From positions 32,001 through 96,000 of the IMG/VR virus record IMGVR_UViG_3300042691_050360: 64,000 nucleotides of DNA. One strand, written 5' to 3'. The position numbers were made by a program, and so were the translations under genes. The DNA is from a virus. Under the pieces are notes generated by a model that made no database searches, was not told the origin of the DNA, and saw nothing but the letters and a program-made list of their open reading frames with translations. Below, in pieces: positions 16,089-63,469 of the stretch (the first letter of the stretch is position 1; every line of letters starts with the position of its first letter).

Positions 16089-16808
16089 ATGCAAAAAACA
16101 GACAATGAAATTTTTTACAATTGGACAAACTCCAACAACTCAAACGATCAACTCCAATTAAGAACAATTAAATCTCGAATAGCACCGATGCTTGCGAAAC
16201 AGGTTTTTGCTCATTCAGAAATTGAGGAAATTTTAGTAGCCGAGGGATACAAGCAAAACCTAATCAAAGAAGCTCTAAAAATGGCAGATAAAGAAAACGA
16301 GGTGGAAGAGCCTGTTAAAACAGCCGAAGAAGCCATCATCCCGAAGAGATATTCTGATCTTTCTCACAGATTTGAGAAACTTTTGGAAACTAAGGGTCCA
16401 ACTAAATTTGTTAATACTCTAACTAAGGGCGAAAACCCGCTCATGAAGCTATCCAGAAAGGAATTGGAAACTTTCCAAAAAATAGCAGACACGGCTTACA
16501 CCAACACAGTTCATCATGCAACCCTTCACGCATTTATGAAGCCGTCGATTATTTCTGAGCTTGCAGAAAATGTATGTCGAGCCCGAAAAATCAGCAAAAA
16601 TTGCCGAGTTGCAAAGGTTGCCGAAAATGTTTACCAAATTAGCCACAATGATAAGAAAATCGAAGTTTCTCTTGGGCCAGTTAAATCATCTAGCACGAAA
16701 TTTGCAAGCTCAAGCTATGGCGAGCTTGGATTCCCTGACGAATATGTTATCTTGGCGTACGAAGAATCGTCACCATACTCTCAGATCAAAAAAGATCTTG
16801 GCCTTTAA
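16089..16808 (+). CDS. Hypothetical protein
   Basis: 239 aa; several K-x-A motifs (VKTAE, AKVAE, TKFAS). Confidence 0.6.
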   Translation: MQKTDNEIFYNWTNSNNSNDQLQLRTIKSRIAPMLAKQVFAHSEIEEILVAEGYKQNLIKEALKMADKENEVEEPVKTAEEAIIPKRYSDLSHRFEKLLETKGPTKFVNTLTKGENPLMKLSRKELETFQKIADTAYTNTVHHATLHAFMKPSIISELAENVCRARKISKNCRVAKVAENVYQISHNDKKIEVSLGPVKSSSTKFASSSYGELGFPDEYVILAYEESSPYSQIKKDLGL

Positions 16809-16823
16809 GGGCTGATTTAAGGT

Positions 16824-16856
16824 TTATACAGCCCGTTGCTACAACAGGCTGTATAA
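16824..16856. promoter_or_regulatory. Inverted repeat overlapping the -10 box upstream of the putative terS
   Basis: TTATACAGCC-C-GTTG cta CAAC-A-GGCTGTATAA, 14 of 15 pairs; overlaps TATAAT at 16852-16857. Confidence 0.65.
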
Positions 16857-16863
16857 TTCAAAT

Positions 16864-17547
16864 ATGACATCATCAAACGAGCCTGTAATTGACAATATCA
16901 TCTTAGATGATTCAAGTCTATTAAAGATAGAAGATGGCGATGATATTATGCTTTTCAGCAGTCTCAAGGCAGACGCCAGGCCTATTATCCCATATAACCT
17001 AAATGTATCTGGCATAGAATACCCTCAATTGTATTCTGGTAAATGTGCGATTTGTAACTCCCCGCACAGAACATTGCTTGAACATGTCTATATTGATTGT
17101 GGAAAAAAGATCAACACCACAATCAAGTTTTTTGAAAGGCACTTTCGGGCAAAATTGAACTGGACTCAGGTCAACCAGCATATTAAGTTTCACTGCGATT
17201 TAAATAAAATTGAAACTCCTGGATTGCTTCACTATGAAGATAGAGAGCATGAAGTTTCAAGATGGAAATACAGAGAATATGAACTTGCGGAAACAATGAT
17301 TCTTATGGAGATTAATGATGTCAGAGGAATCAATGCAAGATCTCCCGACGACATCCTTAAAAGAGCATCAATGATCGAAAAACTCACTGGCAAACTGCTA
17401 TTGATTAAAGAAAAGAGAGATGATAATTCAATGGGGCTACCTAATGTTTTTGAAGTTCTGCATGACCTTCACAACCAGATGATCAACGAAGAGGATCAAA
17501 GAATTATTCGAGAAAAGGTTAAATTCCTAAAGCAATCTATTAGTTAA
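16864..17547 (+). CDS. Probable terminase small subunit
   Basis: Immediately upstream of TerL; CAIC..H..H module followed by a helical region. Confidence 0.55.
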   Translation: MTSSNEPVIDNIILDDSSLLKIEDGDDIMLFSSLKADARPIIPYNLNVSGIEYPQLYSGKCAICNSPHRTLLEHVYIDCGKKINTTIKFFERHFRAKLNWTQVNQHIKFHCDLNKIETPGLLHYEDREHEVSRWKYREYELAETMILMEINDVRGINARSPDDILKRASMIEKLTGKLLLIKEKRDDNSMGLPNVFEVLHDLHNQMINEEDQRIIREKVKFLKQSIS

Positions 17548-61264: not shown

Positions 61265-62295
61265 TACACCGCATTAACATCCACATTGTTCGGGCCAAAC
61301 TGGTCTACACTTACAATTTCTTTAGCTTTCATGGTAAATTCAGCTGTATGGAGGAGGGCCTTATCCATTCCATCATCAGAGGGCTTTATTGACCCTACCT
61401 GAATATCTTGCAAAAGCCTAACAAGTTGAACATCGTTGTTCACAACATTGTTTAGGTTTGTGTTCCAGCTTGTGTTTGAGGAGATTTGAATGGGCTGAAT
61501 TCCAGCCTCCCAATCTGAAACAAGCATCTGAACAGCTTGATAACTCACCCCCGCCCAATCATAATAAGGAGGGGTTGGGGATGCGTGAGTTTCTTGCCAG
61601 AAACTATTCACATTGCTTAAAACAATTCCAGCATAATTATACATCAGGGTTGTTGAGTAGCCAACATGTCCAGAACCTTCAGATCGTGTAAATGATAGAT
61701 TTGCATTGCCGTTAACAAAAGATGTAGCGAGAATACCAATCCCTGAAGATAAAATTGAGTAATTTGTTATTTGCCCTGAAATACTAGGTGAGAGTTTTAT
61801 TAAAGCGGTGCCAGCGAGCCCTATATTAGATCCTGGAATGGCTACGTTATAGCTTGAGGTGTTAGCCGGTAAAGTTGCAGTGTTAATGCCAACCGCTGTG
61901 ATGGTGCCATTATCAATATAGTGTATCGGACTTAAAGGAAGCTTGCCGCAAAATGGGCATAGGTCACAAACCCACATCGTTCTGTGGTTCTTAAGTATCT
62001 GATGAGCAAGACGAGCAGCTTCCTGGATAACTCTTTCAGATGTCTCAACATCATCGCTGCTGGAGTAAAACATTATGTTTATTGAATATTCAAGCTCTCT
62101 TAGTCCGAAACCAATATCCTTTACATCAATGTTTGTGTTTCTGAGCACTACGCCAAGAGGGGCTGGCAGAACTTGTCGATCACCGAAAAACCACTCTTGG
62201 ATAATTCTATCATAAATCTCAGGATAGCCTTGTTGGTTTCTCGGGAATTGTGACCACAAAATAGCCCGAAGGGTGTCGTAGATCTTTTCTACCAT
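61264..62295 (-). CDS. Probable tail terminator/head-tail completion protein with Cys cluster and S/T/G insertion
   Basis: Directly downstream of the adaptor; ELEYSINIMFY..AARLAHQIL..LLHTAEFTMKA; CDLCPFC. Confidence 0.5.
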   Translation of the reverse strand: MVEKIYDTLRAILWSQFPRNQQGYPEIYDRIIQEWFFGDRQVLPAPLGVVLRNTNIDVKDIGFGLRELEYSINIMFYSSSDDVETSERVIQEAARLAHQILKNHRTMWVCDLCPFCGKLPLSPIHYIDNGTITAVGINTATLPANTSSYNVAIPGSNIGLAGTALIKLSPSISGQITNYSILSSGIGILATSFVNGNANLSFTRSEGSGHVGYSTTLMYNYAGIVLSNVNSFWQETHASPTPPYYDWAGVSYQAVQMLVSDWEAGIQPIQISSNTSWNTNLNNVVNNDVQLVRLLQDIQVGSIKPSDDGMDKALLHTAEFTMKAKEIVSVDQFGPNNVDVNAV

Positions 62296-62313
62296 TTATC
62301 TAGCACCCCTGTA

Positions 62314-62802
62314 TTATTGTCCCCCACTCTTACCCCCTTGTGTGGGGTTTTTCGGAACACCCTGGAGCGGCGACCTTACAAACCTACTCCCCCTTGTGTT
62401 GCGATTGCCGTATATTCTCAATTCACCATTCTGTAGCTTAAACAACTGATCATAAGCCCACTTATTTCTCTCCTTTATGGCATCAGACATCTGCCTGTCT
62501 GCACCCTGTAATTTTTGCTCGTATATTCTCGCTGCCGCAAAAATAGCAACGATCTCTGGAACAGGCTTCGGGTAATTCACTTCCCCATCAAAATTCACTT
62601 TCTTTAATGGCACGTCATATTGAGTGGCTAAGGCTCCATCCACTTCATCAGAGGCTGCCTCTACAAAATAGTCCAGGTCAATATTGAAAACAGATTGTGG
62701 CGTAGGATTCCTATAGTCCGGCGAAGGATTGTCACCTTCAACAACAATATTCGGCGGCAAATATTTTTTAACGTCTTCTTTTGAGCAGTATAATCTAGCC
62801 AT
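62314..62802 (-). CDS. Head-tail adaptor (Mu gp36/DUF1320-like)
   Basis: YCSKEDV..VEAASDEVDGALATQYDVPL. Confidence 0.75.
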   Translation of the reverse strand: MARLYCSKEDVKKYLPPNIVVEGDNPSPDYRNPTPQSVFNIDLDYFVEAASDEVDGALATQYDVPLKKVNFDGEVNYPKPVPEIVAIFAAARIYEQKLQGADRQMSDAIKERNKWAYDQLFKLQNGELRIYGNRNTRGSRFVRSPLQGVPKNPTQGGKSGGQ

Positions 62803-63469
62803 TCATTTCCCCTTCTACATTCTGTAAATATCCAGGGGTGTAATTTTCACCCTCTTCTTCTTCTAATAATCCATAGCTTGACAACTTATTCCTTGGGATT
62901 TCTGTGTAAACAGGAATATCTTCAAGCTCAGATCCGCTTCTTGCCGCTGAAGATAAAACCCTTGGATAGTCTATGTCCAAGTCCTTATAAGCCTTTGAGT
63001 GTGCATTATAAATCTCCACAAAATCTGGCTCATATGGTGTACTTTGCCAATTCGAAATAGCTCTTGCAGTAGATCTCGAAAGATCATAAAGCATGACTTT
63101 GCCACCCTGAGTTTTAGCTTGTTTGATTGCATCTTGTATGCCCAGCCCTTGAGGTATGTTCTTTTGGATGTTATAAAAAACAGCTTTGATTTTCTCACTA
63201 CTAACATAATCTTGACCAGGAATAACCTTTAAGTCAATTTTATTATTGATAGCCTGCTGTCGAGCAACCATTCCTGGTTCAATGCCGAACCTGGAAACCA
63301 ACCCAATAACATCAAGCCCTTTAATTATCGCGGAAGACAAAATGGATTTAATCTTAGCTTCAATATCTTGCTGCGTGGAGGGCTCTAATTCATCACCAAT
63401 GTAAACACGCATATCTACTCTTAGATTGTGTTTCCTTAGTGCTGTTTTTAGAAATCCTGAATACCACAC
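62795..63469 (-). CDS. Degenerate PHP-fold protein
   Basis: LRVDMRVY, GLDVIGLVSR, LKVIPGQD, DFVEIYN and SSAARS map onto PHP motifs with the metal ligands replaced; MWY..LKTA leader; late promoter AGGA-N18-TAAAT. Confidence 0.65.
   Translation of the reverse strand: MWYSGFLKTALRKHNLRVDMRVYIGDELEPSTQQDIEAKIKSILSSAIIKGLDVIGLVSRFGIEPGMVARQQAINNKIDLKVIPGQDYVSSEKIKAVFYNIQKNIPQGLGIQDAIKQAKTQGGKVMLYDLSRSTARAISNWQSTPYEPDFVEIYNAHSKAYKDLDIDYPRVLSSAARSGSELEDIPVYTEIPRNKLSSYGLLEEEEGENYTPGYLQNVEGEMNG

What the first reader, a model, noticed from the sequence alone, without database searches (positions are those of the whole stretch)
16089..63469. Candidate peptide-coded head cargo-loading and processing system: a recurrent hydrophobic-[KR]-x-A motif across unrelated head proteins, with an encapsulin-like capsid
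Seen: about 15 mutually non-homologous ORFs carry the same short motif, often near N-termini or between modules. Examples: protease (IIKIAQ, FKKIAS, VVKTAT, MNKFAQ, IVKVAQ, MKRIAY), portal (FEKTAS, YKFAS, LVKMAK), scaffold (IKKIAM, LKTAG, IKTAE), 23744 (NKFAS, MKKIAF, IIKVAQ, FNKIAQ), 24765 (IFRKAS, LKEAS), 25564 (FAKYAQ), 26369 (MRKLAG, SKTAS, IKTAF), 27414 (WYRLAK), 20719 (LIKTAA), 21637 (MKLAQ, RKIAQ), 41286, 42617, 46009, 46363, 48318 (MRIAS), 62795 (FLKTAL). It looks scarcer in the replication and tail genes. Known: T4 gp21 and phiKZ gp175 cut many head proteins at short motifs, T4 internal proteins carry a capsid-targeting leader, and encapsulins load cargo by short peptides. Inference: this phage uses a basic K/R-x-A site plus portable leaders to package and mature a large, evolvable set of internal proteins in a compact 284-aa capsid with no fused scaffold domain.
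Basis: partly seen in the sequence, partly recalled or inferred. Interest (0 to 1): 0.85.

Follow-up and report, generated by a model that had tools for sequence, protein, structure and literature searches.

The report
Predicted head-protease cut sites, phage-G-like phage
In this large uncultured phage (a relative of Bacillus/Lysinibacillus phage G) a four-residue signature, Lys/Arg-x-Ala followed by Ser or Gln, is about five times too frequent in the head-assembly proteins and nowhere else. It is most likely the cutting site of the phage's head-maturation protease, so it predicts which proteins are trimmed or loaded into the capsid.

Summary
Its motif, hydrophobic-[KR]-x-A, is about 2.3-fold over shuffled expectation in genes 16089-39977 and at expectation in the replication and tail-side genes.

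The specific signal is [KR]-x-A-[S/Q]:
- 34 sites against 7.4 expected in the 18 head-module genes (16089-37382).
- 31 against 30 in the other 131 ORFs of the 166.5-kb contig.
- Richest proteins: a 1394-aa protease polyprotein (10 vs 1.5), the portal, a 585-aa scaffold-position protein, and ORFans between terminase and portal.
- The capsid protein family avoids it (1 vs 6.7).

The signal recurs in about 50 metagenomic relatives, in the head module of phage G, and in cultured phage Tunturi_5. One site is K/R-x-A-Q in 24 of 24 homologues amid variable flanks.

The protease domain has the T4 gp21/herpes assemblin fold.

Best reading (about 0.65): these are prohead-protease cleavage sites, with Ala at P1 and Ser or Gln at P1'. 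This resembles herpesvirus assemblin and differs from the Glu-specific T4/phiKZ enzymes. Short N-terminal leaders (MSIF[KR]KA|S) may be T4-like capsid-targeting tags.

No cleavage is shown. The "encapsulin-like" part is not supported: the capsid protein is simply a phage G gp27 homologue.

The parts
30526..34710 (+). 1394-aa protease polyprotein. It has an N-terminal prohead-protease domain (aa ~46-256, window 30661-31293) and a ~1100-aa extension of helical domains, long disordered linkers and two C-terminal zinc-ribbon-like CxxC pairs.
   Evidence: phrog_18299 head maturation protease, E 2.3e-19, aa 83-240. AF2 model md8911475d706 has core pLDDT >80. It aligns to T4 gp21 5jbl at Z 9.4, rmsd 2.9, 128 aa, and to VZV protease at Z 8.5. 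H127 and S178 are invariant in 16 sequences. [KR]xA[SQ]: 10 observed against 1.47 expected. 49 homologues of 1347-2227 aa carry 357 against 90.6 expected.
33976..33987 (+). Best candidate processing site in the polyprotein: K1151-V-A1153|Q1154 (NIVKVA|QGLGLPGAP).
   Evidence: K/R-x-A-Q in 24 of 24 homologues, with P2 free to vary and K/R interchanging; mean flank conservation is 0.32. It lies at the end of a helix, exactly where a 63-residue low-confidence Gly/Pro/Ala linker begins.
31432..31443 (+). Candidate protease-release site K303-I-A305|Q306, about 50 aa after the protease core. A second, less conserved site K262-S-A|Q lies at 31309-31320.
   Evidence: K/R and A are present in all 18 homologues that have this segment, and Q follows in 15; flank conservation is 0.23. 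The site is at the end of helix 284-307, before a disordered stretch. Phage G gp19 (KVA|S at 248, KIA|S at 274 of 300 aa) and Tunturi_5 gp331 (KVA|S at 265 of 287 aa) have sites at the same place.
32170..33357 (+). Further polyprotein sites: K549-I-A|S (32170-32181), K765 (32818-32829), K794 (32905-32916), K924 (33295-33306), R933 (33322-33333), R941 (33346-33357).
   Evidence: Site 551 is kept in 16 of 24 homologues, with repeated Ser/Gln swaps between close relatives. Site 943 is kept in 14 of 24, site 935 in 8, and sites 765 and 796 in 7 each. R1355-T-A|S (34588-34599) sits inside a zinc-ribbon motif and is probably incidental.
27823..30174 (+). Portal protein (783 aa) with a C-terminal DUF559/Vsr-like nuclease domain. 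Candidate sites: K24-T-A|S (27892-27903), R54-Y-A|Q (27982-27993) and K580-F-A|S (29560-29571).
   Evidence: phrog_16240 portal E 8e-34; Portal_Mu; DUF559 at aa 669-767. Five sites against 0.67 expected. Site 582 is kept in 8 of 14 relatives, with Ala at P1' in 4 more. Sites 291 and 315 lie in the conserved portal core (flank conservation 0.85 and 0.59) and may be structural.
34776..36533 (+). 585-aa acidic protein between protease and capsid genes (scaffold position), with a cluster of sites in its last 60 residues (36066-36077, 36372-36383, 36435-36446).
   Evidence: No PHROG or Pfam family. Three sites against 0.64 in the window. The family of 15 carries 50 against 10.2, with C-terminal sites at alignment columns 843-881 and an N-terminal DM[KQ][KR]xA|SLD site in other lineages. 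The scaffold role is inferred from position and composition only.
20719..27764 (+). Block of ORFans between terminase and portal (20719, 21187, 21637, 23348, 23744, 24765, 25564, 26369, 27414). These are candidate internal or processed head proteins.
   Evidence: 23744 has 6 sites against 0.67, 21637 has 3 against 0.89, 24765 has 2 against 0.39, and 26369 has 2 against 0.50. There are no PHROG or Pfam families. Orthologues in L056-L058 keep 2-4 sites each, while the neighbouring replication genes have 0-1.
24765..24788 (+). N-terminal leader MSIFRKA|S of the 272-aa ORFan.
   Evidence: The same leader occurs on non-homologous proteins. It is kept as MSIFRKA|S, MGIFRKA|S and MSIFKKA|S in L056, L057 and L058.
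46303..46326 (-). N-terminal leader MSIFKKA|S of the 105-aa protein 46009-46326 (-). Its paralogue 46363-46638 (-) carries the same leader at 46615-46638.
   Evidence: Relatives have MPIFKKA|SV and MPVFKKA|SV (L002, L004) and MRRFRKA|SI (L036). These genes lie outside the head module, as T4 internal-protein genes do.
37401..38255 (+). Major capsid protein, 284 aa, with no N-terminal delta domain and no [KR]xA[SQ] site.
   Evidence: 50% identical to phage G gp27; 6WKK at E 3e-88 over aa 11-281; phrog_2522. The family of 22 carries 1 site against 6.7 expected.
36594..37382 (+). 262-aa Ala-rich, Lys-poor protein directly upstream of the capsid gene, in the position of phage G's decoration protein gp26. 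It has no site.
   Evidence: Gene order compared with phage G. The family of 15 carries 2 sites against 2.7 expected. I found no sequence similarity to gp26; the decoration role is inferred from position.
17558..19663 (+). Large terminase subunit, which marks the start of the head module. It has no [KR]xA[SQ] site.
   Evidence: phrog_2, E 1.3e-25; absent from the hit list.

Best explanation
The window holds the head-assembly module of a phage-G-like large phage. Its prohead protease has the assemblin/T4 gp21 fold and is made as the N-terminal domain of a 1394-aa polyprotein. It most likely cuts after Ala in the signature [K/R]-x-Ala|[Ser/Gln], which often has a hydrophobic residue at P4 or P5 and a beta-branched or hydrophobic P2.

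Inside the prohead the protease would do four things:
- free itself (sites at 264 and 305);
- cut its own long extension at helix-to-linker junctions (551, 796, 943, 1153);
- trim the N-terminus and the C-terminal appendage of the portal;
- degrade the scaffold-position 585-aa protein, and remove N-terminal propeptides of 5-60 residues from a set of ORFan proteins encoded between terminase and portal and at a few scattered loci.

The capsid shell protein avoids the signature and stays intact. The very short shared leaders (MSIF[KR]KA|S) may double as capsid-targeting tags that end in a cut site, as the T4 internal-protein leader does.

Shown: the enrichment, its specificity, its conservation, its recurrence in three lineages, and the protease fold. 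Inferred: that the motif is cut, by this protease, and that the carriers are packaged.
For: 1. Specific enrichment. The head module has 34 sites against 7.4 expected and the rest of the contig 31 against 30.1. This is robust to local shuffles. Only Ser and Gln at P1' are strongly enriched, control patterns are flat, and the motif comes out of an unbiased pattern scan.

2. The expected pattern of substrates and non-substrates. Polyprotein 4.5-fold, portal 5.2-fold, 585-aa protein 4.9-fold, capsid protein 0.15-fold.

3. Constraint on the motif itself. A1153|Q is present in 24 of 24 homologues of 25-80% identity, with a free P2, K/R exchange and poorly conserved flanks. Site 305 behaves the same way. 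At site 551 Ser and Gln alternate between close relatives, an exchange that needs at least two base changes.

4. Three lineages. In phage G only the 0-20 kb head-module bin is enriched (15 vs 4.9, p 2e-4, of 25 bins). In cultured Tunturi_5 (capsid protein 30% identical) the motif sits in the 'DNA ejection protein' (5 vs 1.4), in the protein between protease and capsid genes (4 vs 0.8) and at the protease C-terminus, and is absent from the tail fibres.

5. All three proteases carry a site just after the catalytic domain. C-terminal self-release is what I recall for T4 gp21 and phiKZ gp175, and herpes pUL26 does it at its R-site (PMC4498786).

6. Protease fold and profile. An intein sits exactly at the invariant DVSMG|C motif in 8 relatives, which marks that motif as essential.

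7. Four of 9 polyprotein sites lie within 3 residues of the start of a low-confidence segment (p 0.015).

8. Precedent. T4 gp21 cuts many head proteins at I/L-x-E (PMC12991175), SPN3US gp245 cuts many head proteins at a short motif (PMC10052503), and herpes assemblins cut after Ala (YLQA-T and VQA-S).
Against: - No proteomic or biochemical datum on cleavage exists for this phage or, in any paper I could read, for phage G. The 2020 phage G structure and mass-spectrometry paper is not held and might already report a motif, or contradict this one.
- Some sites are in well-folded, conserved regions (portal 291 and 315; the polyprotein zinc ribbon at 1357; helical-domain sites at 767 and 926) and are probably not cut, so part of the count is structural or chance.
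- There is also a general 1.3-2-fold excess of [KR]xA followed by other residues in these helical proteins, which shows some helix-periodicity background.
- Equivalence of H127 and S178 with the catalytic His and Ser of gp21 was not checked residue by residue.
- Gene starts are my own longest-ORF calls, which matters for the leader argument.
- The secondary statistics are modest: N-terminal bias p 0.06, linker junctions p 0.015.
Confidence: 0.65

Rival explanations
1. The signature is a docking or targeting motif, not a scissile site. Head-interior proteins would use [KR]-x-A-[SQ], presented at the end of a helix, to bind the scaffold, portal or shell interior during prohead assembly, and would remain uncut.
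For: The head-module restriction, the conservation and the N-terminal leaders fit a binding tag as well as a cut site. Encapsulin cargo peptides and the T4 capsid-targeting sequence show that short peptides can target cargo (general knowledge).
Against: - The motif occurs up to 10-13 times per polyprotein and in clusters a few residues apart (933 and 941; 585-aa protein 533 and 554). That is typical of protease degradation sites and odd for a docking tag.
- It sits directly after the protease domain in three lineages.
- The shell protein avoids it.
Confidence: 0.13
2. The signature is a structural by-product: a helix-end or amphipathic-helix pattern common in the highly helical, Lys- and Ala-rich scaffold-like proteins of the head module, with no recognition role.
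For: Several sites lie at helix C-termini in the AF2 models. [KR]xA followed by other residues is also mildly enriched, at 1.3-2-fold. The portal-core sites look structural.
Against: - Only Ser and Gln are strongly enriched at P1' (4-5-fold). The usual helix-capping residues Gly and Asn are not (Gly 8 vs 3.8, Asn 4 vs 3.8).
- The reversed and shifted control patterns are flat.
- The other 131 ORFs of the contig, many of them helical, are at 1.0-fold.
- K/R, A and Q are invariant amid variable flanks in 24 of 24 homologues.
- The same motif recurs in non-homologous proteins of phage G and Tunturi_5.
Confidence: 0.12
3. The sites are cut, but by another protease (a host enzyme or a second phage enzyme) rather than by the polyprotein's own domain.
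For: Nothing here links the motif to this particular active site. Phage G also packages ClpP/ClpX-like proteins (PMC12484599).
Against: The motif travels with this protease family across hosts as different as Firmicutes (phage G), Acidobacteria (Tunturi_5) and the freshwater host of this phage. It flanks the protease domain itself. I did not search the 166.5-kb contig for a Clp-type protease.
Confidence: 0.05
4. Chance or composition artefact.
For: The motif is short, and both the motif and the head-module boundary were refined after looking at the data.
Against: - Poisson 9e-13 in the window's phage.
- No local-composition shuffle reaches half the observed count.
- The signal replicates in phage G and Tunturi_5, which played no part in defining the motif, and in about 50 metagenomic relatives.
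Confidence: 0.02

Closest known systems
T4 gp21 and phiKZ gp175 / SPN3US gp245 head-processing systems (prohead protease cutting many head and internal proteins at a short motif; T4 capsid-targeting sequence on internal proteins)
   Same: - The protease has the same fold (Z 9.4 to T4 gp21) and its gene lies between the portal and capsid genes.
- A short motif is repeated in many mutually unrelated head proteins, often in N-terminal regions.
- There is a self-cleavage-type site after the catalytic domain.
- Short shared N-terminal leaders end in the motif, as the T4 leader does.
   Different: - The predicted specificity is Ala at P1 with Lys/Arg at P3 and Ser/Gln at P1'. T4 cuts after Glu at I/L-x-E, and by my recollection the phiKZ group cuts at S/A/G-x-E.
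- The protease is fused to a ~1100-aa extension.
- The capsid protein has no propeptide and no site.
- Nothing here has been verified by proteomics.
Herpesvirus pUL26 (assemblin protease fused to the scaffold protein; release and maturational sites)
   Same: - An N-terminal assemblin-fold protease is followed in the same polypeptide by a long assembly-related extension.
- Predicted cuts are after Ala with Ser at P1'; the pseudorabies sites are YLQA-T and VQA-S (PMC4498786).
- There is a site just after the protease domain, and sites further downstream.
   Different: - Basic P3 and hydrophobic P2 here, against hydrophobic P3/P4 and polar P2 in herpesviruses (from memory of the V/L/I-x-A|S consensus).
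- Gln is accepted at P1'.
- About ten sites rather than two.
- I did not examine whether a nested internal-start scaffold gene exists.
- Fold similarity is modest (Z 7-8.5) and there is no detectable sequence similarity.
Phage G (Donellivirus gee) head module: gp14 portal, gp19 protease, gp26 decoration protein, gp27 capsid protein
   Same: - Capsid protein 50% identical, portal 29%, protease domain 35%, in the same gene order.
- The same K-x-A|S enrichment is confined to the head module.
- Phage G has an analogous N-terminal leader (MKRLIKK[S/A]) on about 10 or more proteins.
   Different: - The phage G protease is a free-standing 300-aa protein, whereas here it heads a 1394-aa polyprotein.
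- The ORFans between terminase and portal are not detectably homologous.
- Phage G sites are almost all Ser at P1', whereas Gln makes up 40% here.
Encapsulin cargo-loading peptides
   Same: An HK97-fold shell, and the general idea that a short peptide directs proteins into a protein shell.
   Different: - Neither Pfam nor a PDB sequence search links this capsid protein to encapsulins.
- By my recollection, encapsulin cargo peptides are C-terminal, are not cleaved and bind the shell; here the motif is N-terminal or internal, repeated, and associated with a protease.
- This is a DNA-packaging phage with a portal and a terminase.

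Membership tests
Prohead (capsid-maturation) serine protease, assemblin / HK97 gp4 / T4 gp21 fold | Characteristic beta-barrel protease fold | tested here: met
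   AF2 model of aa 1-330 (core pLDDT 80-94). VIA-align gives T4 gp21 5jbl Z 9.4, rmsd 2.9, 128 aa; VZV protease Z 8.5; pseudorabies protease Z 8.4. Foldseek E-values alone were weak, above 0.001.
Prohead (capsid-maturation) serine protease, assemblin / HK97 gp4 / T4 gp21 fold | Conserved catalytic His and Ser | tested here: inconclusive
   H127 (in TNH) and S178 (in DVSMG) are invariant in 16 sequences, and an intein is inserted right after DVSMG in 8 relatives. Residue-level superposition on the gp21 catalytic residues was not available.
Prohead (capsid-maturation) serine protease, assemblin / HK97 gp4 / T4 gp21 fold | Profile match and position between the portal and capsid genes | tested here: met
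   phrog_18299 'head maturation protease', E 2.3e-19. Gene order is portal 27823, protease 30526, capsid 37401. Pfam gave no hit.
T4/phiKZ-type multi-substrate head processing | Short motif over-represented in many unrelated head proteins and rare elsewhere | tested here: met
   34 sites against 7.4 in the head module and 31 against 30.1 elsewhere. Replicated in phage G and Tunturi_5.
T4/phiKZ-type multi-substrate head processing | Cleavage after Glu (I/L-x-E or S/A/G-x-E) | tested here: not met
   The enriched motif has Ala, not Glu, before the predicted cut. [DE]xAS-type controls were flat, and no Glu-ending pattern stood out in the unbiased scan. This is therefore a different specificity class.
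T4/phiKZ-type multi-substrate head processing | Demonstrated cleavage and virion location of the substrates | not testable with these tools
   No proteomic data exist for this uncultured phage. The phage G proteomics supplement is not held and the 2020 paper is not held.
Herpesvirus pUL26-type protease-scaffold fusion | Protease fused N-terminally to a long assembly protein, released at a site just after the protease domain | tested here: inconclusive
   The fusion architecture is present and conserved in 49 homologues. Candidate release sites lie at 264 and 305. Release itself and a scaffold function of the extension are not shown.
Herpesvirus pUL26-type protease-scaffold fusion | Cleavage after Ala with Ser/Thr at P1' | tested here: inconclusive
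   The motif has Ala followed by Ser or Gln. The herpes sites are YLQA-T and VQA-S. The resemblance rests on sequence only.
Encapsulin shell with cargo-loading peptide | Shell protein belongs to the encapsulin family | tested here: not met
   No Pfam family for the capsid protein at E 0.01 or better. The PDB sequence search returns only phage G gp27. Best PHROG is 'major head protein' at E 3e-65.
Encapsulin shell with cargo-loading peptide | C-terminal, uncleaved cargo peptide that binds the shell interior | not tested
   The motifs here are N-terminal or internal and repeated. Binding to the shell was not modelled.
T4-type capsid-targeting sequence | Short N-terminal leader shared by non-homologous proteins and ending in the protease motif | tested here: met
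   Five proteins carry [KR]xA[SQG] within the first 9 residues against 1.0 expected (P 0.003, or 0.023 if the two paralogues count once). The leaders are conserved in relatives.
T4-type capsid-targeting sequence | Leader is sufficient to direct a protein into the prohead | not testable with these tools
   This needs an experiment.

The most novel reading that the evidence does not exclude
The phage-G-like lineage of huge phages uses a herpesvirus-like Ala|Ser (or Ala|Gln) maturation protease, here still fused to its assembly polyprotein as in herpes pUL26. It would also use 5-8-residue N-terminal tags (MSIFKKA|S here, MKRLIKK|S in phage G) as cleavable capsid-targeting signals that load a fast-evolving set of ORFan and enzyme cargo into the head for ejection. 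If so, the cargo repertoire of hundreds of uncultured megaphages could be read directly from sequence, and the Ala-P1 specificity would be a shared trait of phage and herpesvirus assemblins.
Probability: 0.25. Interest if true: 0.75.

Novelty: new variant of a known kind. Interest (0 to 1): 0.58.

Why it matters
- Proteolytic maturation motifs are known experimentally for only a few phage groups (T4, the phiKZ/SPN3US group, HK97-type phages). A sequence-readable motif for the phage-G-like clade would let one predict mature protein ends, propeptides and likely packaged or ejected proteins across a large, almost entirely uncultured group of huge phages.
- It gives exact, cheap tests in two cultured members, phage G and Tunturi_5.
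- The Ala-P1 specificity and the protease-polyprotein fusion add a phage counterpart to the herpesvirus pUL26 arrangement, which bears on the shared ancestry of the HK97-fold viruses.
- Prohead-protease specificity also matters for bacterial immunity that senses these proteases (PMC12991175).

Tried and rejected
- **Complex prediction.** Complex prediction of the protease domain (aa 46-256) with the segment around site 1153 gave no verdict (score 0.13, under the mark). It is not used as evidence either way.
- **Foldseek against PDB.** No match at E 0.001 or better. Only the VIA-align re-scoring lifted gp21 and the herpes proteases to the top.
- **Profile search of the protease alignment against PDB sequences.** Only coiled-coil noise.
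- **Literature.** The phage G structure and mass-spectrometry paper (PMID 32454153, PMC7316594) is not held. The phage G multi-omics paper mentions proteases but no cleavage sites, and its supplements are not held. Searches for a described phage G cleavage motif found nothing.
- **Family searches.** PHROG and Pfam give nothing for the ORFans between terminase and portal or for the leader-bearing proteins.
- **Protein Atlas for the 585-aa protein.** Only chance-level leads (T4 scaffold domain at 0.80), so 'scaffold' rests on position alone.
- **megablast of 20 kb against cultured phages.** No match.
It is present on 20719 and on a few proteins outside the window, but the family is small and I did not pursue it.
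- **Phage G gp27 in PDB 6WKK.** I considered it as evidence for or against capsid-protein processing. The deposited chain has the gene's numbering, so it is uninformative.

Full report
**What the window is.** The window is bases 32001-96000 of a single 166.5-kb contig of 38% G+C with no terminal repeat.

- The 284-aa protein at 37401-38255 is 50% identical to the major capsid protein gp27 of Bacillus (Lysinibacillus) phage G. Its only solved relative by sequence is that protein (6WKK, E 3e-88).
- Upstream lie a Mu-type portal with an added DUF559 nuclease-like domain (27823-30174) and a 1394-aa protein whose residues ~54-245 match a head-maturation protease profile.
- Next come a 585-aa acidic protein and a 262-aa Ala-rich protein. 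The latter sits in the position of phage G's decoration gene.
- The large terminase is at 17558-19663. The eleven genes between terminase and portal have no family in PHROGs or Pfam.
- IMG/VR holds 53 loci with this capsid protein at 58-98% identity, on contigs of up to 478 kb. The contig is therefore probably part of a much larger genome.

**Checking the observation.** All the quoted strings are present. It is at expectation in the replication genes (12 vs 13.9) and in the genes beyond 48848 (6 vs 6.4).

I then asked which positions carry the information. Across the whole contig, [KR]xAS is 45 vs 25.8 and [KR]xAQ is 20 vs 11.6. The patterns [DE]xAS, [KR]xSS, [KR]xGS, the reversed motif and two shifted versions are flat. 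Within the head module, Ser (20 vs 4.6) and Gln (14 vs 2.6) after the Ala stand out. Every other residue is at 2.1-fold or less, apart from Tyr on very few counts (5 vs 1.6).

A scan of all 8000 a-x-b-c patterns in the head module, made without reference to the hypothesis, puts K.AS, K.AQ and R.AS in third to fifth place, behind two Ala/Pro low-complexity patterns. Nothing similar appears in the other proteins.

With the refined motif the 18 head-module genes hold 34 sites against 7.4 expected (Poisson 9e-13), and the other 131 ORFs of the contig hold 31 against 30.1. Shuffling within 15-, 30- or 60-residue windows does not change this.

**Where the sites are.**

| Protein | Observed | Expected |
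|---|---|---|
| Polyprotein (30526) | 10 | 1.47 |
| ORFan 23744 | 6 | 0.67 |
| Portal (27823) | 5 | 0.67 |
| 21637 | 3 | 0.89 |
| 585-aa protein (34776) | 3 | 0.64 |
| 24765 | 2 | 0.39 |
| 26369 | 2 | 0.50 |

A 390-aa protein outside the window (contig 7376-8548) has four sites within its first 55 residues. The capsid protein and the 262-aa protein have none.

In families built from the metagenomic loci the ratios are polyprotein 4.5, portal 5.2, 585-aa protein 4.9, 262-aa protein 0.7 and capsid protein 0.15 (1 site against 6.7 expected in 22 sequences). These family counts involve related sequences and are not independent.

**Conservation.**
- Forty-nine homologues of the polyprotein (25-80% identity, 1347-2227 aa) carry 2-13 sites each, most of them 5-10, against about 1.8 expected.
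- In an alignment of 24 diverse members the site at residue 1153 is K/R-x-A-Q in all 24. K and R are about equally frequent, at least ten different residues occur at P2, and mean flank conservation is 0.32.
- The site at 305 has K/R and A in all 18 sequences that contain the segment. Sites at 551 and 943 are kept in 16 and 14 of 24.
- Many other sites are lineage-specific.
- At site 551 Ser and Gln alternate between close relatives in at least three places. That exchange needs two base changes, so the set {Ser, Gln} itself appears to be selected.
- Portal sites 291 and 315 lie in the conserved core and may be structural. The site at 1357 is part of a CxxC zinc-ribbon motif.

**Independent lineages.**
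- I rebuilt the phage G genome from 27 overlapping pieces and counted the motif in 658 ORFs. Of 25 bins of 20 kb, only the first is clearly enriched (15 vs 4.9, p 2e-4). This bin holds gp4-gp21, including portal gp14 and protease gp19. The rest of the genome is 89 vs 78.
- The free-standing 300-aa protease gp19 has KVA|S and KIA|S at residues 248 and 274, just after its catalytic domain.
- In the cultured Tunturiibacter phage Tunturi_5 (capsid protein 30% identical) K-x-A-S is found five times in the annotated DNA ejection protein (1.4 expected) and four times in the protein between protease and capsid genes (0.8 expected). [quoted passage not shown]
- Neither genome was used to define the motif.

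**The protease and its extension.**
- An AlphaFold model of residues 1-330, built on 16 sequences, has a confident core. It aligns best to T4 gp21 (Z 9.4, rmsd 2.9 Å, 128 residues), then to the varicella-zoster and pseudorabies proteases (Z 8.5 and 8.4). Foldseek's own E-values were weak.
- H127 and S178 are invariant.
- Eight relatives have an intein (splicing domain plus LAGLIDADG) inserted immediately after the DVSMG motif that holds S178. Such insertions usually mark active sites.
- A low-confidence model of residues 281-1394 (pLDDT 56) shows helical and small beta domains separated by long disordered linkers. Four of nine sites (305, 796, 943, 1153) lie within three residues of the start of a low-confidence segment (p 0.015).

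**Leaders.**
- Five proteins of the contig carry [KR]xA[SQG] within their first nine residues, against 1.0 expected. They are MSIFRKA|S (24765), MSIFKKA|S (46009 and its paralogue 46363, both outside the head module), MRKLA|G (26369) and MGIFREA|G (contig 15045-15623).
- Orthologues keep these leaders. In one family the leader varies as MxxRLG|Q, KRLA|N and ERFA|Q.
- Phage G has its own version, MKRLIKK[S/A/G], on about ten proteins.
- This parallels the ten-residue capsid-targeting sequence of the T4 internal proteins (from my knowledge of the T4 literature). The evidence here is sequence only, and it depends on my start-codon calls.

**Interpretation.** These features are what a promiscuous prohead protease leaves in a genome:
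- enrichment in portal, protease, scaffold-position and ORFan head-module proteins;
- avoidance in the shell protein;
- a site directly after the protease domain in three lineages;
- selection on the four motif residues amid variable flanks;
- clusters of sites a few residues apart.

Such a footprint is documented for T4 gp21 (I/L-x-E) and SPN3US gp245. The predicted specificity differs. Ala at P1 with Ser or Gln at P1' recalls the herpesvirus assemblins, which cut YLQA-T and VQA-S in pseudorabies virus and are likewise made fused to their scaffold protein (PMC4498786).

I put 0.65 on cleavage by the polyprotein's own protease domain, 0.13 on an uncleaved docking motif, 0.12 on a structural by-product, 0.05 on another protease and 0.02 on chance.

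The encapsulin comparison adds nothing beyond the shared HK97 fold.

**Limits.**
- No experimental datum on cleavage was available.
- The one paper most likely to hold such data for phage G could not be read, so the motif may already be known for phage G.
- A complex prediction of protease with substrate gave no verdict.
- Gene calls are longest-ORF calls of my own.

I saw the tag but did not develop it.

Noticed in passing
L002:2471-3610 (and L003, L030, L037, L039, L041, L045, L050); insertion point corresponds to window ~31065, after polyprotein residue 180: Eight relatives carry a 380-425-aa intein (Intein_splicing plus LAGLIDADG domains) inserted right after the invariant DVSMG motif of the protease domain. 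One of them, L002, has a capsid protein 98% identical to the window's. The window's copy is intein-free.
   Followed up: partly
window 29794-30174 (+), portal residues ~658-769: The portal protein ends in a DUF559 / Vsr-like restriction-endonuclease-fold domain (E 4e-12). This is an unusual fusion, and a candidate K-F-A|S site lies about 80 residues upstream of the domain, between it and the portal core.
   Followed up: partly
window 38364-39668 (+): A 434-aa free-standing homing-endonuclease-like gene (LAGLIDADG_3 plus an HNH-type region) sits directly after the capsid gene. It is present in only 11 of the related loci.
   Followed up: no
window 39978-40955 (-): A 325-aa protein has a prepilin-type N-terminal methylation motif (MKKAFTLIELLVVIAIIAIL...). 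This is typical of the abundant pilin-like proteins of Planctomycetota and Verrucomicrobiota, and may hint at the host.
   Followed up: no
phage G record NC_023719 (W01), e.g. 28218, 16055, 73330, 147651, 178671(-), 245985, 446697: About ten phage G proteins start with MKRLIKK followed by S, A or G. Three of them continue with a ...(F/Y)HGT(S/D) motif, which from memory resembles the motif of Tpt1/ADP-ribosyltransferase-like enzymes. That recalls the packaged Alt enzyme of T4.
   Followed up: partly
window 20719-21159 and 48318-48851; contig 97962-98669(-), 19930-20235(-): A shared N-terminal helical tag (L-D/E-x-x-G-x-Y-R-L-A-D...L-[IM]-[KR]-x-A-[AS]) occurs on otherwise unrelated small proteins.
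   Followed up: partly
window 62795-63469(-), 27414-27764; contig 3231-5507(-), 102822-103154; L005:383, L052:255: Several unrelated proteins begin with MWY or M..SWY followed by R/K-x-A (MWYSGFLKTA, MSWYRLAK, MWYNFAQ, MWYRYSQ, MWYRIAQ). This may be a second recurrent N-terminal signature. It is unexplained.
   Followed up: no
window ~34180-34710 (+), polyprotein residues ~1220-1394: The polyprotein ends in two CxxC...CxxC zinc-ribbon-like modules separated by a disordered Gly/Pro/Ala linker; all eight cysteines are invariant in 19 homologues. A third CxxC...C cluster is inserted in the protease domain itself (C188, C191, C202).
   Followed up: no
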